A stretch of 64,000 bases of DNA from Ignavibacteriales bacterium (GCA_037443785.1 JBBINR010000013.1:9525-73524); one strand, 5' to 3'; counted from the stretch's first letter, positions 39,783-55,884 are shown. The notes: generated by a model not told the origin, from the sequence alone. Made by a program: numbers and translations.

Positions 39783-40781
39783 TTACAAAAGCCACTCCAA
39801 AGAAATTCCCGGGGTGTAACCATGCAAGAGCGTAAGATGTGCGTCCGGATGAAAGACTGAATTTGAGGAACCAAAGTGCTCTTGCTTTTGTCGCTCATTA
39901 ATCACCTTTGCAAATGAATAACCGATGGCAATTCCCAATGGATAATCGCTCATCCAATGAATTCCCTGACCGAGCATGGCAATACCGATACAACCAATGG
40001 CAGAATATCCGACATAAGGAATCCACGTTGCTTCCGGGTAATTATCCATGATAACAGTAAGCGTTGCTGTTGCCGTAGCCAGATGTCCTGTTGGAAATGC
40101 ATCATACTTCGGGACGTGTTTCACGTAATCAATCTGATTGGGAAATAATCTCCACTTTCCGCTCCACGATGTAGCCAGTATCGGCGTTTCTCTGCCCGTA
40201 AGATGTTTGAGAAGTTGAATGACCGCACCGCAAGTTAAAATAACTTCAACTGTTTGTGATGCGGTTTGCAATGATTTATTGTTATCCGCTGCAAATCCGT
40301 GGATAGCAAAAGCACCGGCGATCCCAAATTGAAACCATCCTTGCCCCATAAATTCTGCCCGATCAGAAAGTTTTCGGAATGTATAATTCTGTTCGTAGAG
40401 TTTTCGTGCCGGTACATACATTTCGTGATCGTAGATAACAAGAAGTGTTGTCAATGCTGTTATTCCTGCATACAAAGGAAGCCGCTCTGCTCGAAATTCT
40501 CGCTGATACCATCCGGCCCATGTTCCCGGCATATTGGTAAAAGGATCTTTCCAACTCAGCGCAGTTTCCAACTGAAAAGAGCGTTGAAAGATTTGTGCTG
40601 AGGAGTCTTGGTTCCCCGCCAAAAAAGCAAAAGGCAATCCTGATGTATTTCCAAAATCCTTATTTTGGGAAAACACAACGGAGGAAAACAAAAAATATAT
40701 GGTCGATATTTTTAGGAAGGTATTCACATCCAAGATTGTTAAAATATTATTCCAACATCTCTGACTCCGAAAAATTCTCAT
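39783..40781 (-). CDS. PAP2 family membrane phosphatase (paralog)
   Basis: 332 aa; LTGRETP, PTGHLATA and HWMSDYPLG motifs. It lies directly upstream of the other PAP2 gene. Confidence 0.8.
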   Translation of the reverse strand: MRIFRSQRCWNNILTILDVNTFLKISTIYFLFSSVVFSQNKDFGNTSGLPFAFLAGNQDSSAQIFQRSFQLETALSWKDPFTNMPGTWAGWYQREFRAERLPLYAGITALTTLLVIYDHEMYVPARKLYEQNYTFRKLSDRAEFMGQGWFQFGIAGAFAIHGFAADNNKSLQTASQTVEVILTCGAVIQLLKHLTGRETPILATSWSGKWRLFPNQIDYVKHVPKYDAFPTGHLATATATLTVIMDNYPEATWIPYVGYSAIGCIGIAMLGQGIHWMSDYPLGIAIGYSFAKVINERQKQEHFGSSNSVFHPDAHLTLLHGYTPGISLEWLL

Positions 40782-41328
40782 TCACTATTTTAACTGCTTC
40801 GAGGTAGCGGTTTGAAGGAACGAAAATTTTAATCGGATATTTGAAGATCGTTCGGCCAAGCGCATTGTCGATGAATCCATCGGCAATTGTAGCGATATTA
40901 CCGGTATTTCTTCTGTTGGTAGTAATACCGGCACTTTCCAATTTTCCACGAATAATTTCCGCTTCCATATAGTCGGAAGATTTCACCACAAGTGCCCAGC
41001 CCTCGGAGACTTCCACGGAGGCATGAGCAGTACAAAGAAATCTGTTGTTCTTTTCCGTCAAGCATTGATCGCAAAATAATTGATGGCAAATAACACAAAC
41101 GCCAGTAGCGATTCCTGTCGGATGATTAGTACAGGAGTATTGATCTTCGGCAAATAATGTTCCGCACTGCGGGCAGTAATCGGAATCCAGATCAACTTCA
41201 CCACCGCAATGATCGCATTCATCCATCGGCCTCGATTCCGGCAGCGTATTCGCCAAAAGCACGTTACAATCGGCACAGAAGACCGCATCATCGGTATATT
41301 CAGTTTTACATTCCGGACAGTATTTCAT
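40747..41328 (-). CDS. double zinc-ribbon protein with C-terminal DUF2007-like (PII-like, putative signal-transducing) domain
   Basis: 193 aa. There are four CxxC pairs (CPECKT, CADCN, CDHCGG, CPQCGT) and a further run CTNHP...CVIC...CDQC. The C-terminal ALVVKSSDYMEAEIIRGKLESAGI resembles DUF2007. Confidence 0.6.
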   Translation of the reverse strand: MKYCPECKTEYTDDAVFCADCNVLLANTLPESRPMDECDHCGGEVDLDSDYCPQCGTLFAEDQYSCTNHPTGIATGVCVICHQLFCDQCLTEKNNRFLCTAHASVEVSEGWALVVKSSDYMEAEIIRGKLESAGITTNRRNTGNIATIADGFIDNALGRTIFKYPIKIFVPSNRYLEAVKIVNENFSESEMLE

Positions 41329-42721: not shown

Positions 42722-44098
42722 ATGAAAAAACATTTTGTCGTTATTCTTTTACTTGCCGCAACGGTGCTTACAGCGCAAGAAAAAGTTCAAGCTATCCATG
42801 GGGGAACAGCTCGGACTGCAGCACTCGGCGGCGGGCCAAATAATCCGTACATAAAAGATTATACGGATGTGTTTACCAATCCGGCATACGCCTTAACCTA
42901 CAGCGATTTTTTATACAGTGATATCGGATATGCATTTGCAGCGTATTCAGCGTCCGGTCAATATATTGGCTATACATTGGGCCTCAATAATCTTGCAGTT
43001 GGAATTGCCATCGGCAAAAGAGAGGGACCCATGTTTGCAGAACAATCTTTGCTCCCAGGCTCATTTTATGGCTCTTCCGATAATATGACAGCAGATGCAC
43101 AAGCGAATACATTGCCAGGAAGTATAATTCGCGAACCTCGTTCACCGATTCAATTGTATGGTGCGTTTAAACTCGGCGCAATGACAATCGGAGCTTCGAT
43201 CTATCGTTCCGGCTGGAGCCAAGTAAATGATGGAACCGGCTTAGGTCTTACAACAAAACAAAAGTTAGATGCCGGACAAGGACAAACTGGTATAAAAGCG
43301 GGTGTGTTAATAGAATTAAGCCAGCAAATTACTATCGACGGCGCAGTGATGTTCAGAAATAATTCTTCAACAATTGAACTTACTGACTCAGACACTGCCG
43401 CACACACCATCGCAAACCCAAGTTCACAAAAATATGATGCATCCGGAAGTGAATTTGCAGTCAATGCAAGAGCGATAGTGAAGTTGAGTGATAAACTTGA
43501 AGTCGTACCGCAAGCCCGTTTTGCTACATTCGGCTATCAACCTGAATTTTCCCAAAACCCTTCCGTCCCTGCTCCCGCAAACACCAAACCGAATGATTAC
43601 GGAAGAAGTGAATTTGAAGTTGGTGTTGGTATTAATTCAAAATTTACCGGCGGGATGGTAACGTTCGGATTGAGTATTCAAAGCATTTCATTGAAAAACG
43701 ATGTCACTACTCTTTCCGGTACAACATTCCAGACAACAAAAAATACCGCTTCGTGGCTCGATCTTCCAAAAATTAATGTTGGAGCGGAATATCAAGTTGC
43801 CAGTTGGTTGACCGGCCGCCTTGGCTATTTTAATCGTCTATCGTCCATGTCAACGAAAACTGAACCGCCATCTCCAGCAACAACAACCGAAGTAACAATC
43901 GGTCAAGAAAATGGTTATACGCCGAACTTTGGATTGAACTCTGCGAGCCAGCAGCTTTCGCTCGGTCTGGGCATTTCAATTGATCGAGTTGCAATCGACG
44001 GATATATGGGTGAAAGATTTTTAGCCGCAGGTCCATACATTCTGAGTGGAAATGGTCAGGACATGTTTTGTATCATGTCCATGAGTGTTAAATTTTAA
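42722..44098 (+). CDS. hypothetical outer-membrane beta-barrel protein (FadL/PorV-like topology)
   Basis: 458 aa; signal peptide, abundant amphipathic beta-strands, terminal residue F. Confidence 0.55.
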   Translation: MKKHFVVILLLAATVLTAQEKVQAIHGGTARTAALGGGPNNPYIKDYTDVFTNPAYALTYSDFLYSDIGYAFAAYSASGQYIGYTLGLNNLAVGIAIGKREGPMFAEQSLLPGSFYGSSDNMTADAQANTLPGSIIREPRSPIQLYGAFKLGAMTIGASIYRSGWSQVNDGTGLGLTTKQKLDAGQGQTGIKAGVLIELSQQITIDGAVMFRNNSSTIELTDSDTAAHTIANPSSQKYDASGSEFAVNARAIVKLSDKLEVVPQARFATFGYQPEFSQNPSVPAPANTKPNDYGRSEFEVGVGINSKFTGGMVTFGLSIQSISLKNDVTTLSGTTFQTTKNTASWLDLPKINVGAEYQVASWLTGRLGYFNRLSSMSTKTEPPSPATTTEVTIGQENGYTPNFGLNSASQQLSLGLGISIDRVAIDGYMGERFLAAGPYILSGNGQDMFCIMSMSVKF

Positions 44099-44111
44099 GA
44101 ATACAACGATT

Positions 44112-44144
44112 AACGGCGCTCAGATTTGAGCGCCGTTTTTTTTT
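44112..44144 (+). terminator. rho-independent terminator
   Basis: aacggcgctc-agattt-gagcgccgtt followed by a T9 run. Confidence 0.75.
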
Positions 44145-44289
44145 GAATGGACAGAGAAGGCTGCTCTAAATTGTTTAATGCGGAGACCGATAGAGCGGCA
44201 GAGGTACAATTATCAAAAACAAAAATACTGGTTCAGTATTTCAGATCGTTGGCTTCAACAAGCCATACAAAGACAGAAAAGGATTTTCG

Positions 44290-44919
44290 ATGAAAAAAGT
44301 TTTTGGAGTTATATACAACGCGTTATTTTTCAACTCAACCCGGTATTGGAAGATCCGATATAAGAAAGGGGGAGATTCCGGCGCAGGTTCGTACGGAAGA
44401 ATGGCACAATTTAAGGCTGATGTCATTAATGAACTTGTAGAGAAGAACAATATAAAAACAATCGTTGAACTTGGATGCGGAGATGGAAGCCAGCTTACGC
44501 ATGCCCGTTATCCATCATACGTAGGGTACGATATTTCTCCGGTTGTCGTCGAAAAGTGTAGAAATATTTTTTCCAATGATCAATCAAAAACATTTACAAA
44601 CCACGTTCCGCAGCAAACGTTCGATTTATCGATGTCGATCGATGTCATCTATCACCTGACCGAAGACAAAATCTTTGACCGATACATGACTGATTTATTT
44701 AATCTATCGCAGCACTATATCCTTATCTTTTCAACAAATTACACTATCAAAAGTTTTGCGAAGCACTTGAAGCATAGAAAATTTACCGATTGGGTTGAGC
44801 ACAATAGGCCTGAATGGAAATTAGTTCAAACTGTATTGAATAAATATCCTTATAACCCAAATGATTTGGATACGACTTCTGATGCAAACTTTTATTTATA
44901 TGAAAAAAAATCTGCGTAG
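44290..44919 (+). CDS. class I SAM-dependent methyltransferase
   Basis: 209 aa; motif I VELGCGDGSQ. It lies at the edge of the AT-rich island. Confidence 0.7.
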   Translation: MKKVFGVIYNALFFNSTRYWKIRYKKGGDSGAGSYGRMAQFKADVINELVEKNNIKTIVELGCGDGSQLTHARYPSYVGYDISPVVVEKCRNIFSNDQSKTFTNHVPQQTFDLSMSIDVIYHLTEDKIFDRYMTDLFNLSQHYILIFSTNYTIKSFAKHLKHRKFTDWVEHNRPEWKLVQTVLNKYPYNPNDLDTTSDANFYLYEKKSA

Positions 44920-45177
44920 AGACTGGATTTTTATTCTTCCTCACAGGATAATCTTTAATATATAATAGCTCTCAAAAAAATATTTTGATATGGGCCAATA
45001 ATTTGGTGATTATATAGTTTACAAACCGTTGAAACTTACCTAAAACTGACCTACCTTTAGCAAAAGCACACCGCCTTAGATGTGCAACGCAAAGAATTTA
45101 ATCCTTCTCGTTCCCTGCAATGACAGGGAGGGTGAACGCATGTTCATTCTAAGGCACGGGAAGGATTTTTTATTCCT

Positions 45178-45882
45178 ATGGACAAATTACAACAAACAGC
45201 AGATCAATTTAAGTCTAAATTACTAAGTGGGGGTCAGAGAAAGGGTTTTGCCACAATTATAAGGGGTGCAAAATCTCGCAAAGAAAGAGAAAAGCATATT
45301 GAAATGTTAAAAACTTGGAACGGTGCAGTTGAATATGAACGGCAAAAGTTAGAAAAGAAAATTTTATCCAGTAAAAATCCTGCCGTTTTAGATCTTCAAA
45401 AATCCAGCTTAAACAACATTTCGTCTTCATTGACAACTCTTGTAAATGGTGACCGCGAATTAAACTATTTAAATATTATTAGTTTAGAAATATTGTTTTA
45501 TAACATAAATAGATTGGTAAGTTATTGTGAGCACGCGAGCAGGATGAAAGGTTCTAATGACATGTACGCTTCGCTTATCGGTGTTATTGAAACACTAAAT
45601 CAGAAGTCAAAGATTAGCATTCAAGAACTTCAAGAAAAACTTAAAAAATTTGATAAAACAAAATATGATAAAGATGTTTTTAAAAGGGCTACCGCAAGAT
45701 ATAATAATGCCAGAGGATACGACAAACACTATGGAAGATGTCTTCTTACCGAGCTTAAATATAGTCGGGTTGATTTATCGAAAAATTTTGAAGAAAGCGA
45801 AGAGTTCATGGACTGGAATAATGCCTATAAAAAATATCGAAGCTCGCAATATCGGGTGAAATCGAATTCACCTAAGAAGTGA
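45178..45882 (+). CDS. hypothetical basic (Lys/Arg-rich) protein, no recognised domain
   Basis: 234 aa, visibly AT-rich coding sequence, predicted coiled-coil segments, no TM helix. Convergent with the DUF3800 gene. Confidence 0.5.
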   Translation: MDKLQQTADQFKSKLLSGGQRKGFATIIRGAKSRKEREKHIEMLKTWNGAVEYERQKLEKKILSSKNPAVLDLQKSSLNNISSSLTTLVNGDRELNYLNIISLEILFYNINRLVSYCEHASRMKGSNDMYASLIGVIETLNQKSKISIQELQEKLKKFDKTKYDKDVFKRATARYNNARGYDKHYGRCLLTELKYSRVDLSKNFEESEEFMDWNNAYKKYRSSQYRVKSNSPKK

Positions 45883-45896
45883 AATCGAATTCACTT
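45856..45896. repeat. two tandem copies of a 16-bp near-palindromic motif gtgaaatcgaattcac, 9 bp apart
   Basis: gggtgaaatcgaattcacctaagaagtgaaatcgaattcactttccc. The first copy overlaps the last codons and stop codon of the hypothetical gene. Confidence 0.6.
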
Positions 45897-46181
45897 TCCC
45901 AATGAGTTCGAGATTACCTTTAAAGAGAAATCGTTAGCTACTTTTTTACCCACCTTCTTTCTTTATTTTTGTATCAAGAGTTTAAAACAAAAAAACCCGC
46001 TCACGGTTTAATGGGTCGGGTTCAATTTGCTTCTAACCATGTGAAGGTAGCACTTCACAGCATGAGAAAGGAGTAATGATGTTTACCGCTTTCGCTGGTT
46101 TTTGTCACAAAGCCAGAGACTCATCATAAAATCTCCCGCTACGCGCGGGAGTCATATAAAAAATTTCTGAAAGAATAAAAA

Positions 46182-47117
46182 TTATCTTGAGTTCGCATGT
46201 GTTGAGACCGATGTCGTAGATGCTTTATGTGAAGCACATATCTTGCAAGGGCACGAGGAAGATGTGAAATGACGAACTCCGACAACTTTCCCATCTTTTT
46301 TATCGGCGATTTTAAATATTTCATTGAATAGATAGTCTTCATCATTATCTAAATATCTTCGTAAAGAATAACTACATACGTCAGCAATTTGAACCATACT
46401 TGTTAATTGAGAATCAACAAACAATGGTGTCTCAATAATATTTTGAATATCAGTCCATAGTGTACCTTTACGATGGAATGATTTCATTAATTCGGTGTGT
46501 TTTTTACATATTGTTTCATTATTGTCGTGTATTAATAATCCATATTGCTTGACATTTGTATTTTTGGTGAAGATTTTTAAATATTGTTCAAATCGAGACA
46601 CTAATTGTTCAAATGCTTGAACGTCAATTGTTGATGTTGCAATGGTAGGATTGAAATGTATTTTGTCAATACATTCGGCGAATAAACGACTAAAACCACC
46701 CCAAGAACCTATTAATTTTGCAATGTCTAAAATTAATTGTTTTCTCTCTTTATAAGAGAGATGAATATACGATTGTGTTTTTCGGTAATTCTTTTTTGTT
46801 TTATAATAAAGTTTTTGATTTTTCGACCCTTGTAATCGAAGCAATTCATTGTTCCGATACTTTTCAACCTCACGTCGCCGTGTTGCATAATCTAATTGAT
46901 CAAAATTATTAATTTTATTCTGCTCTAAATAAGCACGAATTATTTCACCCGTATGAATTTCTTCGGTTTGAAGATTGTATTTTTGCTTAATTGAATATAT
47001 ATCGTTTTCACATTGTTTCCATTTAGAGATTGGTATTGCAATACCAGCTAATACGAAATGTTTTGAATTTCCTGGGATTGAAGATGTGCCTGATTCGTCG
47101 ATATAGCAGAATATCAT
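46182..47117 (-). CDS. DUF3800 family protein
   Basis: 311 aa. The N-terminus MIFCYIDESGTSS...HFVLAGIAI, the HTGE motif and the C-terminal QIADVCSYSLRRY are the conserved DUF3800 signatures. Confidence 0.7.
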   Translation of the reverse strand: MIFCYIDESGTSSIPGNSKHFVLAGIAIPISKWKQCENDIYSIKQKYNLQTEEIHTGEIIRAYLEQNKINNFDQLDYATRRREVEKYRNNELLRLQGSKNQKLYYKTKKNYRKTQSYIHLSYKERKQLILDIAKLIGSWGGFSRLFAECIDKIHFNPTIATSTIDVQAFEQLVSRFEQYLKIFTKNTNVKQYGLLIHDNNETICKKHTELMKSFHRKGTLWTDIQNIIETPLFVDSQLTSMVQIADVCSYSLRRYLDNDEDYLFNEIFKIADKKDGKVVGVRHFTSSSCPCKICASHKASTTSVSTHANSR

Positions 47118-47439
47118 ATAGCCCCTATAAAAAAAAAGCGACTGGTTTTAGGGATTTAATCCCATAATTGAGACGCTTAGCGACTCTTACCAGACGCAAT
47201 TCAATTTTATTAAAAAATTGGTGCTATGTCAAGTGAAAATAGAACAATTTTTATATAAAATCTTACGGAATTTGATTGTTATTGGTTGCGATGTTTTTCC
47301 GCATGTTTTGATTCAGGCTTTTAAAAACACTTACTGTAAAAATTTACAGTTTTGTTCATTTCTTCTTCTTTGAAGGTACCTGCATTATTTTTCTCAACGC
47401 TTCTTTAACATCGTATGGAAATAAGGATATTGGTTTTTC

Positions 47440-48500
47440 ATTCGTTCTTTTTTTCTCTCCGTCTTCCTTTTGTAAGCGTTGAGTTTTATGAGTCCGCGTA
47501 TTTGAGTCTTTTACCTTCAAAGCCTGCCAATGCCTTTAATGTTCGTTCGTGATCGTCAATCTTCCTATTGTTGTATCTGAAATCAAATTCAGCAAGGTAT
47601 CTGTGTAAGTGTTCTTTGGAAACATGATGATACACACCGTTGATACCCCTTTTAAATATACTAAAAAATCCCTCAACGGTGTTAGTATAAACATTTCCGC
47701 GAACGTATTCATAGTGGCTATGTATTACCGTTTTATGAGAAGCAAAATCTTTTCCAATGTCTTTATACAAATGCAATTCATCGGTCATTAAGTTAGCCGT
47801 TGGATGAATGTTCTTTGTTAAGACTTCTCGCAAGTTTGTAGCGGAAACAGTAGGAACAACGAAAGAACGGACTTTACCGTCACGCTGAACCAAAGAAACA
47901 ACCGGGACTTTATTTTCTAATCCTGTAGCATTTCCCATTCTTCTACGTCGTCCGCCAACATAAGTCTCGTCAGCTTCTACCGTTCCTTTGAGTTTTCCGA
48001 AATGACCTTGCTCCATTGCATAGCGGACTCTGTGAGCCATGAACCACGCGGTCTTATAGGTTATACCTAATTGCCTATGCAGTTGATGTGCAGACATCCC
48101 TTTTTTAGAGGAACATAAAAGAGTAATCGCTTGTAACCATTGAGAAAGCGGAATGTGAGAATCTTCAAAGATAGTCCCAACTGTTACCGTGAATTGATTG
48201 CTTGTTTTATTCTTTCTGCAATCCTTACAACGGTATAAACCTTTACGGATTTTCTTTTCAGGATTAGCTTCTACCTTCACAACTTCGGTACTGCCACAAC
48301 GCGGGCAACATACATCGTCAGCCCAACGAATGCTTTCTAAAAGCTCTCTGGCTTGATCTTCTTTCCCAAAGTCTTTTGCAAGTCCTTTTAGGGTAAGAAC
48401 CTTTTCGTCTGTTGTTTTCTTCTTCATGGCATTATTCCTTTTTTAACTCACTTCAATATACAATTTTTCGAGTGGTTTGTCAAGTATATAATTGCCAATA
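47440..48500. mobile_element. IS1595-family insertion sequence (boundaries approximate)
   Basis: It contains a single IS1595-type transposase gene. The terminal inverted repeats could not be defined by eye. Confidence 0.55.
47486..48427 (-). CDS. IS1595 family transposase
   Basis: 313 aa; N-terminal zinc ribbon (CPRCGS...CKDCRK) followed by a DDE domain of the ISXO2/IS1595 type. Confidence 0.85.
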   Translation of the reverse strand: MKKKTTDEKVLTLKGLAKDFGKEDQARELLESIRWADDVCCPRCGSTEVVKVEANPEKKIRKGLYRCKDCRKNKTSNQFTVTVGTIFEDSHIPLSQWLQAITLLCSSKKGMSAHQLHRQLGITYKTAWFMAHRVRYAMEQGHFGKLKGTVEADETYVGGRRRRMGNATGLENKVPVVSLVQRDGKVRSFVVPTVSATNLREVLTKNIHPTANLMTDELHLYKDIGKDFASHKTVIHSHYEYVRGNVYTNTVEGFFSIFKRGINGVYHHVSKEHLHRYLAEFDFRYNNRKIDDHERTLKALAGFEGKRLKYADS

Positions 48501-48543
48501 ATTTCTCTTGCATAAATATTCATTGTCTTGTATATTTATGCAT

Positions 48544-49569
48544 ATGAAAAAAAATATTTCTATCATTGGCGCATCAGGATATTCGGGGGCTGAGCTGCTT
48601 GGAATTCTGTTACGCCATCCAAACGTCAATGTCACAAAAGTTTTTGCGCATTCTTCTGCAGGTAAGAGAGTTGATGAACTCTATCCCAAATTCAGAGCCA
48701 CCTATATCGGGAAATTACCCTATGAAGAATATTCAATCGAGAAAGTTCTCAACGACGATCTTATCTTTATAGCTCTCCCTTCCGGCGAAGCGATGAATTA
48801 CGTTCCAGCTTTGGTTGATGCAGGTAAAAAAGTAATTGATCTTGGCGGGGATTTTCGATTACAAGATACTTCTCTCTATCAAAAATATTATAAACACGAA
48901 CATAAAGCTGGCTCTTATTTACCCAAAGCTGTGTATGGACTGCCTGAATGGAATAAAGAAAAAATTTCGTCTGCCCAGCTGATTGCAAACCCGGGGTGTT
49001 ACGTTACCAGCGCTTTGCTTCCTCTTCTTCCTCTTGTTAAAGAAAACATAATCCATGCAACAGGCATCACCATCAGCTCGCTCTCTGGGGTGTCGGGAGC
49101 AGGAAGAAGTTCTTCCATTGATCTATCATTTTCCGAAGCAAATGAATCAGTAAAAGCATACAAGGTCGGTGTACATCAGCATACACCCGAGATCGAAACT
49201 CTTCTCTCATTATTTGGGAAAAAACAAGCGGTGGTAACATTTGTCCCGCATCTTATACCAATTATTCGCGGAATTTATTCATCGATTTATGTGACACCAA
49301 ATGGAAACTTGACGCACGAACAGATCGAGTCTGTTTATAAAAAATATTATTCTGATGCACCGTTTGTTCGATTGATTGGTAATGCTGTTCCGGAAATTAA
49401 GCATGTACAATATTCCAATTACATCGACATCGGTTGGAAACTCTACGAACGTAATAATCAACTCATTGTCTTTTCAGTAATTGATAATTTGGTAAAAGGC
49501 GCAGCCGGACAAGCGGTACAAAATATGAATCTCATTTTTGGACTAAACGAAACAGAAGGTCTCTTATAA
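48544..49569 (+). CDS. argC: N-acetyl-gamma-glutamyl-phosphate reductase
   Basis: The ORF track starts at 48508; the real start is probably at 48544 (MKKNISIIGASGYSGAELL). The active site ANPGCYVTS is present. Confidence 0.9.
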   Translation: MKKNISIIGASGYSGAELLGILLRHPNVNVTKVFAHSSAGKRVDELYPKFRATYIGKLPYEEYSIEKVLNDDLIFIALPSGEAMNYVPALVDAGKKVIDLGGDFRLQDTSLYQKYYKHEHKAGSYLPKAVYGLPEWNKEKISSAQLIANPGCYVTSALLPLLPLVKENIIHATGITISSLSGVSGAGRSSSIDLSFSEANESVKAYKVGVHQHTPEIETLLSLFGKKQAVVTFVPHLIPIIRGIYSSIYVTPNGNLTHEQIESVYKKYYSDAPFVRLIGNAVPEIKHVQYSNYIDIGWKLYERNNQLIVFSVIDNLVKGAAGQAVQNMNLIFGLNETEGLL

Positions 49570-53028: not shown

Positions 53029-54267
53029 GTGAAAAAACAAAAAATAGCAGTTGCATATTCAGGCGGACTTGATACTTCCGTCATCGTAAAATGGCTTCAA
53101 GAAAAATATGATGCCGACGTCATCACGGTAACAGGAAATCTCGGACAGAAAAAAGAATTGGTCGGCGTTCCGGAAAAGGCGTACAAATCCGGTGCAAAAA
53201 AAGTCTTCATGCAAAATCTTGAAAAAGAATTTGTTTATGATTACATCTTCCCCGCTTTAAAAGCAGGCGCATTGTACGAACACAGTTATCCGATGGCAAC
53301 ATCGATCGGACGTCCACTGCTTGCCAAAGCACTTGTTGAAGTTGCAAAAAGAGAAAAATGTACCGCTGTTGCCCATGGCTGCACAGGAAAAGGCAACGAT
53401 CAGGTTCGTTTTGAAGTTTCGGTTATGGCACTCGCACCCGAATTAAAAGTTATCGCTCCATTGCGTGAGTGGGAATTCAAATCTCGCGAAGAAGAAATGG
53501 AATACTGCCATAAGCATGGTATTCCCGTTGCAGCGACAAAGAAAAGTCCGTATTCAATCGATGAAAATATCTGGGGAACAAGTATTGAGTGCGGGATTCT
53601 CGAGGATCCTATGGAGGTTGCACCGGAAGATGCATACACACGCACCGTCTCTCCAGAAAATGCTCCAAATAAACCAACCTACGTAACAATCGAGTTCAAA
53701 CAAGGAGTACCGGTTGGATTAAACGGAAAAAAAATGGACGGCGTTTCTCTTATTCATAAATTAAATGAGATTGCCGGTGCAAACGGTGTCGGGCGTCTCG
53801 ACCTCGTTGAAAATCGCCTCGTTGGAATTAAATCGCGCGAAGTGTACGAAGCGCCAGCTGCCGTAACACTTCACTTTGCCCATCGTGAATTAGAACGCTT
53901 AACTCTCGACAAAGAAGTGATGCATTACAAAGCAAAACTTTCCAACGATTATGCCGATATCATTTACAGCGGAACATGGTTCTCCCCTATTCGGAAAGCA
54001 CTCGATGCATTTATTAATGAAACACAAAAAAATGTCACGGGAATTGTAAAAGTAAAACTGTATAAAGGCAATGTTGAAATTGCCGGACGGACTTCGCCGT
54101 TTTCACTGTATGATATGAAATTAGCTACATACACTGTTGCGGATACATATGACCACACAGCAGCAGAAGGCTTCATTAAAATTTACGGCTTGCCGTTAAA
54201 GACATACAATCAGGTGAACAAAGAAAAATTTGCAAAAGTAAAGAAAGCATTAAGAAGAAAGAAATAA
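53029..54267 (+). CDS. argG: argininosuccinate synthase
   Basis: 412 aa; [11 protein letters not shown]-loop. Confidence 0.92.
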
Positions 54268-54284
54268 TAGGTTTAAGGAGAAGT

Positions 54285-54320
54285 AAAAAAAACCCGCTTA
54301 CAGAGCGGGTTTTTTATTTT
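54285..54320 (+). terminator. rho-independent terminator of the arg operon
   Basis: aaaaaacccgct-tacaga-gcgggtttttt. Confidence 0.75.
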
Positions 54321-54423
54321 ACAAAATACTCTAAACGCGAACCAAAATAAATTTCGATTCACTCTCTTGAATTTAAGACATAATTGTATTATTTAATGGT
54401 GAAATTTCCTTCACCATCAGGGG

Positions 54424-55884
54424 GTGGTCATGTTTCGTAATCTCAGCATTTCTGTAAAGCTCTTCATTACATTCGTTCCAATCTTTATACTTGGAATCGT
54501 TCTCAGCGTTTACTTGAACAATCAAAATCAGGAACGCCAAATGCAGGATCAAGCACTCGAATCTGCAAGTCAAAAGGCTCACATCGTGCGAGAATCACTT
54601 GTCAACATGATGGTCGAAAGTCAAATGGTCAACGATGCCTATCTCGAAAAAATCAAACAGGTTGCAAATCTCAACGAACTCTACATAAGGATTGATACGA
54701 CGCGGCTTCATCTCGCGGAAGATTATATGGATGCACAACGATCCATCCGTTTGGGAGATCGGATGCGCCATGCACAACGAAAAGATGACTACGATAATTC
54801 GTACGGCAATGAAGTCCTTTTGACCGGACAGCAAAAATGGATCAGGGTCGGCGATAACTTCCGTGCAATGATTCCCTTTAAAGCCGAAAAAAAATGCCAG
54901 CGCTGCCATGACGTTCAAATCGGAGATGTGCTTGGCGTTGCCCACATTGAATTTCCTTTAACAAAAATTATTGAAACGAACCGGCAAAACTCTTTGCATG
55001 CGGCAGAAATTTCAGGCGGTGTTGCATTAATGGTCATTATCATTGGTTTTATTTTTTTTCGGTCACTTGTTCAAACTCCTTTAAAGAAGCTGGAAACTGC
55101 CGCAAAAGAAATCGGCAAAGGGAACATGACGGACGATCTAAAACTTCGCACATCCAATGATGAAGTCGGAAAGCTCGCACAGTCCTTTGTACAAATGCGA
55201 ACCGCATTAAAGCAAAGTCAGGATTCGATGCGGATTTCCACTGTCGGACAAATTGCCGCATCATTGGTTCAAGATTTCAGAGCACCGATCAAAAAAATTG
55301 AAACAGCAATCGACGAATTGAAGAACCCGCACCTTGAAGAACCAAAGAAAAATGAACTTCTCGCAGACGCAAAAGAAGGGGCAAATCTTGTCAACGAAAT
55401 GACGCAGGATCTTCTTGATTTTACATCCGGCGATATGAAAGTTGAAAAGAAATTGTCAAGCGTTGGTAAATTGCTTCGGACGGTAACCTCAATCGTAAAA
55501 CCCGATCTCGACAAACAAAATATCACACTGAATATCGTCACACTGTACGATGGCACCGCAGTTTTTGATGCTGATCGAACTGCTCGCGCGCTTGATAATA
55601 TAATAACGTACGCAGCAAATTATATCCCCACCGGAGGATCAATTAAATTAGAGTCAGATTCAATGGATAAAAATCTTCTTATACGAATCATTGATAACGG
55701 AAGCGGGATTCCGAAACAATTCCAAGAAAAAATTTTCGAACCATTTGTCAAAATTGTCCGCGGAGAAGGCGTTGGTCTTGACCTTGCATTGGCAAAACAA
55801 ATCATCGAACGGCAAGGGGGGAAAATTATTTTAGAATCGGAAGAACATAAAGGAACAACGTATACCATTTCTCTTCCGCTGTAA
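54424..55884 (+). CDS. orphan sensor histidine-kinase-like protein with periplasmic CxxCH (c-type heme) motif, HAMP, DHp and HATPase_c; Gln at the expected phospho-acceptor His position
   Basis: 486 aa. TM1 (FITFVPIFILGIVLSVYL), a periplasmic region of about 160 aa containing KKCQRCHD (codons at about 54898..54912), then TM2. The DHp sequence ISTVGQIAASLVQDFRAPI has Q at the position normally occupied by the phospho-acceptor His (caa at 55270..55272). The N box (IDNGSGIP) and G box (GVGLDLA) are intact. Confidence 0.8.
   Translation: MVMFRNLSISVKLFITFVPIFILGIVLSVYLNNQNQERQMQDQALESASQKAHIVRESLVNMMVESQMVNDAYLEKIKQVANLNELYIRIDTTRLHLAEDYMDAQRSIRLGDRMRHAQRKDDYDNSYGNEVLLTGQQKWIRVGDNFRAMIPFKAEKKCQRCHDVQIGDVLGVAHIEFPLTKIIETNRQNSLHAAEISGGVALMVIIIGFIFFRSLVQTPLKKLETAAKEIGKGNMTDDLKLRTSNDEVGKLAQSFVQMRTALKQSQDSMRISTVGQIAASLVQDFRAPIKKIETAIDELKNPHLEEPKKNELLADAKEGANLVNEMTQDLLDFTSGDMKVEKKLSSVGKLLRTVTSIVKPDLDKQNITLNIVTLYDGTAVFDADRTARALDNIITYAANYIPTGGSIKLESDSMDKNLLIRIIDNGSGIPKQFQEKIFEPFVKIVRGEGVGLDLALAKQIIERQGGKIILESEEHKGTTYTISLPL

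What the first reader, a model, noticed from the sequence alone, without database searches (positions are those of the whole stretch)
44290..48500. AT-rich accessory island (methyltransferase, basic hypothetical, DUF3800, IS1595) inserted immediately upstream of the arg operon
By eye the coding sequence from about 44.9 to 48.5 kb is markedly AT-richer (roughly one-third GC) than the flanking housekeeping genes (about 40-45% GC). Its genes are poorly conserved types: a small-molecule methyltransferase, a 234-aa basic protein with no recognisable domain, a DUF3800 protein, and an IS1595-family transposase abutting argC. This looks like horizontally acquired material of the sort that carries defence or abortive-infection cargo.
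Basis: partly seen in the sequence, partly recalled or inferred. Interest (0 to 1): 0.55.

Follow-up and report, generated by a model that had tools for sequence, protein, structure and literature searches.

The report
Cargo-carrying IS1595 transposon beside arg operon
The AT-rich stretch is real foreign DNA: mostly a 3.5-kb cargo-carrying IS1595-family jumping gene, and one cargo gene, a DUF3800 nuclease, is preceded by a conserved small structured RNA that matched none of the curated RNA families searched.

Summary
The GC dip is real. The element has GC 0.351, against 0.414 ± 0.012 (minimum 0.379) for equal-sized windows elsewhere. Three independent Ignavibacteria-type relatives have only 105-127 bp between the OMP gene and argC; the window has 4,442 bp.

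The insert has two parts.
- A small class-I methyltransferase gene (44290-44919) has no mobility signature. It lies outside the transposon ends.
- A 3,492-bp IS1595-family "transporter IS" (tIS) spans 45005-48496. It has 23-nt inverted repeats and a perfect 8-bp target duplication (AATAATTT). It carries the transposase, a DUF3800 RNase-H-like protein and a rare basic 234-aa protein.

Ninety related elements share the same repeat consensus, and most have 8-bp duplications. All carry 0.6-3.6 kb of varied cargo, with many toxin-antitoxin and defence-type genes; DUF3800 is the most frequent Pfam family.

It is present upstream of every held homologue of this DUF3800 subfamily that has upstream DNA, covariation supports its structure, and it has no Rfam match.

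Verdict: a new member of a known kind. A defence or addiction role is inferred, not shown.

The parts
44101..44148 (+). Intrinsic terminator of the OMP gene. This is the native left flank of the insertion site.
   Evidence: It is a hairpin followed by a T-run. Equivalent terminators follow the OMP gene in L004, L006 and L008.
44290..44919 (+). A 209-aa class-I SAM methyltransferase of the small-molecule type. It is extra DNA but lies outside the transposon.
   Evidence: Pfam gives Methyltransf_23 at 1.1e-07. NCBIfam Pse_Me-ase scores 36 bits against a cutoff of 112. It also matches PHROG methyltransferase families. GC is 0.368. The gene is absent from the OMP-argC gap of relatives, and it lies left of the left target duplication.
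44997..45004 (.). Left copy of the 8-bp target-site duplication, AATAATTT.
   Evidence: It is identical to 48497-48504.
45005..48496 (.). The complete IS1595-family transporter IS (tIS), 3,492 bp.
   Evidence: It has IRs and a target duplication. Ninety related elements have the same IR consensus, and about 55 of them have perfect 8-bp duplications. GC is 0.351, against 0.414 ± 0.012 elsewhere.
45005..45027 (+). Left inverted repeat, GGTGATTATATAGTTTACAAACC.
   Evidence: It matches the reverse complement of 48474-48496 at 19 of 23 positions. These are the only two matches to the IR core in the whole window.
45094..45175 (+). A strongly folding three-way stem-loop followed by a U-run, ending 3 nt before the orf234 start codon. 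Its function is unknown.
   Evidence: MFE is -34.4 kcal/mol, with a z-score of -4.9 against shuffles. It has no Rfam hit. Conservation could not be tested.
45178..45882 (+). Cargo gene orf234: a basic (pI 9.7), all-helical protein from a rare family.
   Evidence: It has 19 distant homologues among 1.84 billion representatives, with a conserved C-terminal 90 aa. AF2 gives pLDDT 86-97 for the C-terminal domain. No fold or family matches were found.
46133..46151 (-). Terminator-like hairpin downstream of the DUF3800 gene.
46182..47117 (-). Cargo gene encoding a DUF3800 (RNase-H-like) protein of 311 aa with a C-terminal Cys/His cluster.
   Evidence: It matches PF12686 at 6.4e-21 and phrog_38260 at 4.5e-118. 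It has more than 2,500 homologues, and the top 120 are 59-70% identical across phyla. All invariant residues are present.
47129..47197 (-). Conserved structured RNA consisting of a three-helix junction and then a U-run. It is the 5' leader of the DUF3800 gene.
   Evidence: It is conserved upstream of every held homologue that has upstream DNA. Covariation: 98% of cells are paired, against 84% in shuffles and 38-45% in slid controls. RNAalifold gives the same structure. The fold z-score is -4.2. It has no Rfam hit.
47204..47232 (-). Promoter of the RNA/DUF3800 unit, TTGACA-N17-TAAAAT.
   Evidence: It matches 11 of 12 consensus positions. The -10 box ends 6 nt before the first G of the RNA. All homologues have a lineage-appropriate promoter in the same position.
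47486..48427 (-). IS1595-family DDE transposase of 313 aa, with an N-terminal zinc ribbon.
   Evidence: It matches PF12762 at 1.4e-40 and PF12760 at 9e-13, and NF033547 at 217 bits against a cutoff of 75.
48455..48483 (-). Transposase promoter, TTGACA-N17-TATATT, with its -35 box inside the right IR.
   Evidence: It matches 11 of 12 consensus positions.
48474..48496 (-). Right inverted repeat, GGCAATTATATACTTGACAAACC (read inward).
   Evidence: It fits the clade consensus GGCRATTATATACTTGACAAACCCA.
48497..48504 (.). Right copy of the 8-bp target-site duplication, AATAATTT.
48508..48549 (+). Two ARG-box-like palindromes overlapping the argC start. This is the native right flank and it is intact.
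   Evidence: The inverted repeat is 48502-48522 / 48529-48549. The same paired boxes lie directly before argC in L004, L006 and L008. Calling them ArgR operators is an inference.

Best explanation
SHOWN. The extra 4.4 kb between the OMP terminator and the arg operator is two separate acquisitions.

(1) A transporter IS of the IS1595 family occupies 45005-48496.
- It has a DDE transposase with an N-terminal zinc ribbon.
- It has 23-nt terminal inverted repeats, and the transposase promoter's -35 box lies inside the right repeat.
- A perfect 8-bp duplication of the target AATAATTT flanks it, so the whole 3,492 bp moved as one unit into a site 3 nt upstream of the first ARG box.
- No gene was disrupted, and the arg operator and core promoter are intact.

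(2) A methyltransferase gene with about 850 bp of surrounding DNA was already between the OMP terminator and that target site. It has no recognisable mobility signature.

The transposon cargo is:
- a self-contained unit made of promoter, roughly 60-nt three-helix RNA, U-run and then the DUF3800 gene. Homologues 43-70% identical at the protein level keep the same RNA and layout, both as solitary genes among housekeeping genes in several phyla and in IMG/VR viral contigs;
- orf234, a rare basic helical protein.

INFERRED. The RNA is the transcribed 5' leader of the DUF3800 mRNA. In most lineages its closing helix plus the U-run acts as an intrinsic terminator, so most transcripts end as a short RNA and only read-through makes the nuclease.

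I think the RNase-H-like DUF3800 protein most likely binds this RNA. The two nearly identical helices (GCGUCU / AGUCGC, each with an invariant U·U mismatch) look like a twofold protein-binding site. The RNA would then restrain or regulate the protein, as in a type III toxin-antitoxin or abortive-infection pair. Such a module would also help the transposon persist.
For: Insertion. The order YchF-OMP-argCJBF-argR, with a 105-127 bp OMP-argC gap, holds in L004, L006/L007 and L008/L009. The window has 4,442 bp there.

Transposon.
- IR and 8/8 target duplication.
- Transposase family assignment.
- In 90 of 154 related loci the same IR consensus lies 10-70 bp before the transposase start and again 0.6-3.6 kb beyond its stop. 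About 55 of these have perfect 8-bp duplications.
- The cargo ORFs fall into 78 sequence clusters.
- tIS is a described class in the IS1595 family (bioRxiv 10.1101/2021.05.26.445724).

Foreignness. GC and GC3 values.

RNA.
- It is conserved upstream of every subfamily member held with upstream DNA, 14 distinct sequences in all.
- Covariation counts and slid controls support the structure, and RNAalifold agrees independently.
- A promoter abuts the RNA's 5' end in every lineage, and the start codon follows 15-45 nt after the RNA.

DUF3800.
- The catalytic-type motifs DE and QxxD and a Cys cluster are intact.
- The literature reports an RNase-H fold and links to retron type VII, to Cas12a2/Cas12a3 (type V-A2) and type VI-F CRISPR loci, and to 11 other RNA motifs (PMC7736814, PMC10910872, PMC12669027, PMC5737381).

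Cargo theme. Among sister elements, cargo proteins match DUF3800 (8), SocA_Panacea (8), PIN (8), DUF433 (3), Beta_protein, CapP, PD-Lambda-2, HEC-09 and others.
Against: - Only one copy of the element is known. The only other occurrence found is a Logan assembly contig (run SRR11582159) with the identical arrangement, so activity is unproven.
- No protein in the island gives a convincing PADLOC hit.
- The U-run is missing in 4 of 14 RNA variants (L182-184, L188), so termination is not universal.
- The RNA is single-copy, not a tandem array as in known type III systems.
- Nothing shows that DUF3800 is toxic or that it binds the RNA.
- orf234 has no functional clue, and it is absent from all other DUF3800 loci examined.
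- The relatives used for the empty site are distant (OMP 53-57% identical), so the timing of the methyltransferase gain is not resolved.
Confidence: 0.8

Rival explanations
1. A simple 1.1-kb IS1595 element landed next to pre-existing accessory genes. On this reading the left repeat at 45005 is a stray or chance match, and orf234 and DUF3800 are not cargo.
For: Many IS1595 members are simple insertion sequences of 0.7-1.3 kb (table in PMC7371123). The transposase GC (0.40) resembles the host, while the cargo GC (0.32-0.33) does not.
Against: There is no IR-like sequence between the transposase stop (47486) and 45027; only two matches exist in the whole window. The 8-bp duplication is perfect at the outer ends, 45005 and 48496. 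All 90 related elements with detectable IRs are 1.6-4.6 kb long and carry cargo in the same place.
Confidence: 0.04
2. The whole 4.4 kb, methyltransferase included, is one island acquired in a single event and works together. For example, the methyltransferase could be the modification partner of the DUF3800 nuclease.
For: All of it is absent from relatives, and all of it is below the window's mean GC. The methyltransferase has a weak PADLOC mad2 hit at 1.8e-4.
Against: The target duplication puts the methyltransferase outside the mobile unit. It matches only generic small-molecule methyltransferase models, and no DNA-methyltransferase family model matched. No methyltransferase accompanies DUF3800 in the homologous loci held here.
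Confidence: 0.06
3. The RNA is simply a cis-regulatory leader: an attenuator, or an autoregulatory binding site like a ribosomal-protein leader. On this reading DUF3800 is not a toxin or defence gene but a housekeeping-like nucleic-acid enzyme that spreads by horizontal transfer.
For: The RNA is always on the same strand, directly between promoter and start codon. Close homologues sit singly among housekeeping genes with no defence neighbours. There is no PADLOC match.
Against: The family is 60-70% identical across phyla, has low GC relative to its host and occurs in viral contigs and transposons, which fits a mobile accessory gene. The literature links DUF3800 to retrons and CRISPR loci. This rival overlaps the best explanation on the RNA and differs only in the protein's biological role.
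Confidence: 0.3
4. The RNA is a guide or scaffold for an RNA-directed nuclease, analogous to IscB/TnpB omega-RNAs. DUF3800 would then be a mobile RNA-guided enzyme.
For: The protein has an RNase-H-like fold and a tightly linked structured RNA. DUF3800 genes pair with at least 11 other unrelated RNA motifs (PMC5737381).
Against: The promoter abuts helix P1 and the U-run follows it, so there is no room for a variable guide segment. The only variable part is the short hairpin P3, which covaries as a stem.
Confidence: 0.05

Closest known systems
Transporter IS (tIS) of the IS1595 family (ISfinder/TnCentral concept)
   Same: It has a DDE_Tnp_IS1595 transposase with an N-terminal zinc ribbon, short terminal IRs and an 8-bp target duplication. 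Passenger genes lie inside the IRs, downstream of the transposase.
   Different: This cargo combination was seen in no other element. The subgroup and the ISfinder name could not be assigned here because no ISfinder access was available. The closest relative has a transposase only 75% identical and different cargo (L010).
DUF3800-associated RNA motifs (DUF3800-I to -XI; Weinberg et al. 2017, PMC5737381)
   Same: It is a conserved structured RNA tightly linked to a DUF3800 gene, often followed by an intrinsic terminator, and UAA triplets are prominent (the P2 loop and the junction).
   Different: Nothing in Rfam 15 matches it, even at E <= 10 on 171 nt. Rfam 15 includes at least DUF3800-I and -IX. 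This RNA is always on the same strand, immediately 5' of the gene and starting at the transcription start, whereas DUF3800-I was reported on either side and in either orientation. I could not see the published diagrams of motifs II-XI, so identity with one that is absent from Rfam is not excluded.
Type III toxin-antitoxin / abortive-infection systems (ToxIN, CptIN, TenpIN)
   Same: The order is promoter, small structured RNA, intrinsic terminator, then a nuclease gene with no promoter of its own. It occurs on mobile elements and prophages.
   Different: The RNA is single-copy, not a tandem array. The protein is an RNase-H-like DUF3800, not a ToxN/AbiQ-fold endoribonuclease. Neither toxicity nor RNA processing has been shown. 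This is a likeness in layout only.
Retron type VII and CRISPR type V-A2 / VI-F accessory DUF3800 proteins
   Same: They share the Pfam family (PF12686) and the N-terminal DE motif. The C-terminal QxxD motif is present here.
   Different: The island has no reverse transcriptase, msr/msd, cas gene or CRISPR array. The protein is stand-alone, without a TPR domain.

Membership tests
IS1595 family insertion sequence / tIS | DDE transposase of the IS1595 type with an N-terminal zinc ribbon | tested here: met
   PF12762 at 1.4e-40 matches the full-length profile, and PF12760 matches at 9e-13. NF033547 scores 217 bits against a cutoff of 75.
IS1595 family insertion sequence / tIS | Terminal inverted repeats at both ends | tested here: met
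   The 23-nt IRs match at 19 of 23 positions. The consensus is shared with 90 related elements.
IS1595 family insertion sequence / tIS | 8-bp direct target-site duplication | tested here: met
   AATAATTT flanks both ends, 8 of 8 identical. About 55 relatives have perfect 8-bp duplications.
IS1595 family insertion sequence / tIS | Passenger genes located inside the IRs (this distinguishes a tIS from a plain IS) | tested here: met
   orf234, the RNA and DUF3800 lie between 45027 and 47486, inside the IRs and target duplication.
IS1595 family insertion sequence / tIS | Demonstrated mobility (multiple copies or a polymorphic site) | not testable with these tools
   Outside this genome's own record, only one other occurrence was found: a Logan assembly contig (run SRR11582159) with the identical arrangement.
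DUF3800 (PF12686) | Pfam model match above the gathering score | tested here: met
   76.1 bits against a cutoff of 21, covering profile positions 1-149 of 149.
DUF3800 (PF12686) | N-terminal DE motif and C-terminal QxxD motif | tested here: met
   YIDESG at residues 5-10 and QIAD at 243-246. Both are invariant in 41 homologues. The motifs are defined in PMC7736814.
DUF3800 (PF12686) | RNase-H-like fold | not tested
The fold is taken from PMC10910872, PMC7736814 and PMC12669027. No PDB relative was found by sequence.
Rfam DUF3800-I ... -XI RNA motifs | A covariance-model match to one of the curated families | tested here: not met
   No DUF3800-named hit was found at E <= 1 on 5.5 kb, at E <= 10 on 171 nt, or in homologous loci.
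Rfam DUF3800-I ... -XI RNA motifs | A conserved, covarying structure genomically linked to DUF3800 genes | tested here: met
Type III toxin-antitoxin (ToxIN-like) | Tandem array of antitoxin RNA repeats upstream of the toxin gene | tested here: not met
   TRF and the repeat search find no array at 47118-47485. The RNA is single-copy.
Type III toxin-antitoxin (ToxIN-like) | Terminator between the RNA and the toxin gene, which has no promoter of its own | tested here: met
   A U-run follows P1 in 10 of 14 variants, and 15-45 nt separate it from the start codon.
Type III toxin-antitoxin (ToxIN-like) | Toxin of the ToxN/AbiQ endoribonuclease family that is neutralised by the RNA | tested here: not met
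   The protein is a DUF3800 and has no ToxN/AbiQ family hit. Neutralisation is not testable here.
Known anti-phage defence systems (PADLOC-DB v2) | A significant match of any island protein to a system component | tested here: not met
   Only marginal partial hits were found: mad2 1.8e-4, PDC-M04A 5.4e-5 over 50 aa, and PDC-M26B 9e-5.
Retron type VII | Reverse transcriptase plus msr/msd next to DUF3800 | tested here: not met
   The island has no reverse-transcriptase ORF and no retron RNA.
DNA methyltransferase / restriction-modification | A match to a DNA methyltransferase family model, and a partner nuclease | tested here: not met
   Only generic Methyltransf_11/12/23/25/31 models match. The best named model, Pse_Me-ase, scores 36 bits against a cutoff of 112.

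The most novel reading that the evidence does not exclude
The roughly 60-nt three-helix RNA and the DUF3800 RNase-H-like protein form a previously unrecognised two-part RNA-protein toxin-antitoxin or abortive-infection module. The RNA, made in excess by termination at its own closing helix, would bind and restrain the nuclease until infection or loss of the element upsets the balance. The module spreads across phyla as a 1.1-kb unit and is picked up repeatedly by IS1595 transporter ISs. If so, this would give a working hypothesis for all the orphan DUF3800-associated RNA motifs.
Probability: 0.25. Interest if true: 0.7.

Novelty: new member of a known kind. Interest (0 to 1): 0.4.

Why it matters
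As a genome feature it is ordinary: one cargo-carrying insertion sequence that landed in a harmless spot upstream of the arg operator.

Two by-products are more useful.
- A whole clade of IS1595 elements (90 examples delimited here) always carries 0.6-3.6 kb of highly variable cargo, with many toxin-antitoxin and defence-type genes. This makes the clade a cheap place to look for new small defence or addiction modules.
- The DUF3800 gene comes with a compact, promoter-proximal, covarying RNA that Rfam does not recognise. DUF3800-linked RNAs have had no functional hypothesis since 2017. This module is only about 1.1 kb, has its own sigma-70 promoter, and could be tested directly in E. coli for toxicity, RNA binding and phage protection.

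Tried and rejected
- **OMP protein scan of genome contigs.** Nothing was found. The species and its close kin are not among the GTDB representatives, at least by exact peptide words.
- **Exact-sequence look-ups** of the transposase, OMP and argC gave only a Logan assembly contig (run SRR11582159) with the identical arrangement. No strain-level empty site could be obtained.
- **Rfam** gave nothing for the DUF3800 leader, for the orf234 leader, or for the divergent DUF3800-carrying elements.
- **An exact 19-mer of the RNA** was absent from viral contigs.
- **The RNA next to the divergent DUF3800 genes** carried by other IS1595 elements was not found.
- **tRNA or integrase-type island.** There is no tRNA in the window and no integrase, so this was rejected.
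- **Weak IR-like match at 44304-44316**, inside the methyltransferase gene (I11). It was judged to be chance because it lacks the conserved TTGACAAACC half.
- **Hybrid promoter toward argC** formed by the right IR. A 9/12 match exists at 48492-48520, but the native TTGCAT-N17-TATATT promoter inside the ARG boxes is intact, so no regulatory effect is claimed.

Full report
**1.

The sliding GC profile shows that the 2-kb windows covering 44001-48000 are the lowest in the 64 kb, at 0.336-0.355. Every other 2-kb window lies between 0.381 and 0.446. The 500-bp minimum is 0.288, at 46500-46999.

- 44290-44919 (+): a 209-aa generic class-I SAM methyltransferase.
- 45178-45882 (+): a 234-aa basic protein (pI 9.7) with no family hit.
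- 46182-47117 (-): a DUF3800 protein (76 bits; cutoff 21).
- 47486-48427 (-): an IS1595-family transposase with zinc ribbon (NF033547, 217 bits; cutoff 75).

The arg operon begins at 48538/48544 and runs argC, argJ, argB, argF, argR.

**2. It is an insertion**

The OMP protein has homologues only in Ignavibacteriales/Bacteroidota metagenome-assembled genomes. The best is 63% identical and most are 50-57%.

Three independent relatives with long contigs keep the gene order YchF(-) OMP(+) argC argJ argB argF argR argG, with only 105-127 bp between OMP and argC. These are GCA_040901865.1 (L004), Logan DRR046409/DRR046408 (L006/L007) and GCA_022180565.1 (L008/L009). The window has 4,442 bp in that gap.

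In the relatives the gap holds the OMP terminator, a 13-38 nt spacer and two ARG-box-like palindromes that overlap the argC start. The window keeps both ends: the terminator at 44101-44148 and the boxes at 48508-48549. Everything between them is extra.

**3. Anatomy: two pieces, not one**

A 23-nt inverted repeat lies at 45005-45027 and 48474-48496. The left arm is GGTGATTATATAGTTTACAAACC, the right arm reads inward as GGCAATTATATACTTGACAAACC, and they match at 19 of 23 positions. These are the only two matches to the repeat core in the window; shuffles give 0.08.

A perfect 8-bp direct repeat, AATAATTT, flanks the repeats at 44997-45004 and 48497-48504.

So a 3,492-bp unit containing orf234, DUF3800 and the transposase transposed as one piece. 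It landed 3 nt upstream of the first ARG box. The methyltransferase lies to the left of the left duplication and is not part of that unit.

The element's GC is 0.351, against 0.414 ± 0.012 (minimum 0.379) for equal-sized windows elsewhere. The cargo (0.315-0.33; DUF3800 GC3 0.231) is much more deviant than the transposase (0.40).

**4. The element belongs to a cargo-carrying clade of IS1595**

Scans with the transposase returned 160 loci, 48-75% identical, from many phyla. A script looked for inverted repeats between the 150 bp before the transposase start and the 6.5 kb after its stop:
- 90 of 154 loci have a pair fitting the consensus GGCRATTATATACTTGACAAACCCA.
- About 55 of those have perfect 8-bp target duplications.
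- Element lengths run from 1,640 to 4,643 bp (median about 2,450), so every one carries 0.6-3.6 kb beyond the transposase.

The 124 cargo ORFs of at least 140 aa fall into 78 sequence clusters.

Pfam hits among the cargo are led by DUF3800 (8 besides the window's), SocA_Panacea (8), PIN (8) and DUF433 (3). Others include Clp protease, Beta_protein, Peptidase_M78, N6_Mtase, PIN_10 and NYN. PADLOC recognises PDC-M24B, PDC-S13, HEC-09, PD-Lambda-2, cll/beta, CapP, RmrA and restriction-modification methyltransferases.

None of the sister elements carries orf234, the methyltransferase, or a DUF3800 close to the window's. The nearest element is L010, with a transposase 75% identical and a length of 3,171 bp, and its cargo is different.

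**5. Cargo 1: DUF3800 with a conserved leader RNA**

The DUF3800 protein belongs to a large, tightly conserved subfamily:
- It has more than 2,500 homologues, and the top 120 are 59-70% identical. They come from Bacteroidia, Marinimicrobia, Chloroflexi, Riflebacteria and Planctomycetes metagenome-assembled genomes.
- It matches phrog_38260 over its full length (4.5e-118).
- It occurs in 19 IMG/VR contigs.
- The invariant residues include D7, E8, H197-D198-N199-N200, Q243/D246 and a C-terminal Cys cluster. The window protein has all of them.

Close homologues sit alone among housekeeping genes and have lower GC than their surroundings.

Aligning the upstream regions revealed a nearly identical element of about 60 nt in the window, L170, L178 and L181. 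In the window it is 47129-47197 on the minus strand:
GCGUCUGGUAAGAGUCGCUAAGCGUCUCAAUUAUGGGAUUAAAUCCCUAAAACCAGUCGCUUUUUUUUU

It ends 11 nt before the DUF3800 start codon; the RNA core ends 20 nt before it.

A covariance model built from those four sequences finds the element directly upstream, on the same strand, of every subfamily member held with enough upstream DNA. That covers the window, L170-174, L178/180, L181, L182-L200 and L202-204, which is 14 distinct sequences. It is absent next to the divergent DUF3800 genes of other tISs.

The fold is a three-way junction:
- P1 is GCG·CUGG paired with CCAG·CGC.
- P2 is GAG·CGC, a UAA loop, then GCG·CUC. P1 and P2 each contain a conserved U·U mismatch.
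- P3 is a variable hairpin.

On the 14 distinct sequences:
- 98% of cells form pairs, against 84% after shuffling and 38-45% when partners are slid by 1-3 columns.
- All five P3 pairs, two P1 pairs and one P2 pair show changes on both sides.

RNAalifold predicts the same helices independently. One caveat: the alignment was fitted to the model.

In every lineage a promoter ends 5-7 nt before the first G. It is TTGACA-N17-TAAAAT in the window (11/12) and a TAnnTTTG-type box in the Bacteroidota examples. The start codon follows 15-45 nt after P1. Ten of the 14 variants have a U-run after P1.

Rfam 15 gives no hit at all, even at E <= 10 on 171 nt. Weinberg et al. 2017 described eleven unrelated DUF3800-associated RNA motifs of unknown function (PMC5737381), and at least DUF3800-I and -IX are in Rfam. 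The present RNA is therefore either a twelfth motif or one of the published ones that never entered Rfam. I could not see their diagrams.

**6. Cargo 2: orf234**

The word-indexed search found only the protein itself and one fragment. The exhaustive search found 19 distant relatives among 1.84 billion representatives. They share a C-terminal block of about 90 aa:
KFDKTKYD..HYGRCLL.ELK.RGIA..GFE..EF..W.NAFK.YRS

A subset also shares the N-terminal 160 aa.

AlphaFold with that alignment gives an all-helical protein with a confident C-terminal domain (pLDDT 86-97). There is no structural or family match.

The gene is preceded by a strongly folding three-way stem-loop and then a U-run (45094-45175, z = -4.9). 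No homologous DNA was available, so its conservation could not be tested.

**7. The methyltransferase**

It matches only generic small-molecule methyltransferase models. The best named model, the pseudaminic-acid-associated methylase, scores 36 bits against a cutoff of 112.

It is absent from the relatives' OMP-argC gap. Its GC of 0.368 is lower than 96% of equal-sized windows elsewhere. No repeats, IR or mobility gene bound it. It was in place before the tIS arrived, because the duplicated target lies to its right.

**8. Mechanism**

Shown:
- the insertion, the element's ends, and the cargo content;
- conservation and covariation of the RNA;
- the fixed layout of promoter, RNA and gene.

Inferred:
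- The RNA is the 5' end of the DUF3800 transcript.
- In most lineages P1 plus the U-run terminates most transcripts.
- The duplicated GCGUCU/AGUCGC helices are a protein-binding site.
- The RNA restrains or autoregulates an RNase-H-like nuclease.

The fold, and the links to retron type VII and to Cas12a2/a3 (V-A2) and VI-F loci, are taken from the literature (PMC7736814, PMC10910872, PMC12669027).

The layout resembles type III toxin-antitoxin systems. Membership fails, because the RNA is single-copy and the protein is not ToxN-like.

A purely regulatory leader on a non-toxic enzyme remains a serious rival. No island protein gives a convincing PADLOC hit, so "defence" remains a hypothesis. It is supported only by family associations and by the toxin-antitoxin and defence flavour of sister-element cargo.

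**9. Effect on the host**

No gene is interrupted. The ARG boxes and the TTGCAT-N17-TATATT promoter within them are intact. The transposase and DUF3800 are transcribed away from argC. No regulatory consequence is claimed.

**10. Verdict**

The feature is a new member of a known kind, an IS1595 tIS. It carries an interesting passenger: a DUF3800 gene with a covarying leader RNA that is not in Rfam.

Noticed in passing
window 45094-45175 (+): A strongly structured three-way stem-loop (MFE -34.4 kcal/mol, z = -4.9) followed by a U-run, ending 3 nt before the orf234 start codon. Its layout mirrors the DUF3800 leader. It has no Rfam hit, and no homologous DNA was available to test conservation.
   Followed up: partly
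window 45856-45901 (+): A tandem duplication of the 16-nt near-palindrome GTGAAATCGAATTCAC straddles the orf234 stop codon. The two copies can also pair with each other (z = -3.0). It could be a terminator or a recombination scar.
   Followed up: partly
window 48508-48549; L004 9454-9488; L006 9490-9527; L008 9452-9488: Paired ARG-box-like palindromes (TTGCATAWWTATKCA types) overlap a sigma-70-like promoter and the argC start codon in the window and all three relatives. This suggests a leaderless, ArgR-repressed arg operon in this Ignavibacteria-type lineage.
   Followed up: partly
L010-L169 (160 loci with related IS1595 transposases): Every one of the 90 elements with detectable ends carries variable cargo, in 78 sequence clusters. 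It includes many PIN/DUF433, SocA_Panacea, DUF3800, gop-beta-cll, CapP, PD-Lambda-2 and HEC-09-like genes. This clade could be mined for small toxin-antitoxin and defence modules.
   Followed up: partly
L170 4904-5879; L178 5925-6897; L181 5914-6906; L182-L200: The RNA plus DUF3800 unit occurs as a solitary low-GC gene wedged between housekeeping genes in several phyla, and in IMG/VR viral contigs, with no transposase nearby. How it moves in those cases is unexplained.
   Followed up: partly
L074 3407-4758: A Myxococcota locus has a divergent DUF3800-like ORF (26% identical) immediately after a related IS1595 transposase, on the opposite strand. Its inverted-repeat score was below the cut-off used in the IR scan, and it was not looked at individually.
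   Followed up: no
L002 3-947: The only fragment homologous to orf234 that has DNA held (P0002, 56% identical over the C-terminal third) is followed by an HTH_17 (excisionase/MerR-like) gene. This hints at a mobile-element context for that family as well.
   Followed up: no
window 54000-54499: A second, smaller GC dip (0.342 in one 500-bp window) lies downstream of the arg genes. It was not examined.
   Followed up: no
window 40747-41328 (-): A 193-aa protein with double zinc-ribbon domains and a DUF2007 domain lies next to a PAP2 phosphatase gene, upstream of YchF. The relatives have M16 peptidase genes there instead, so the left flank beyond YchF is not syntenic either.
   Followed up: no
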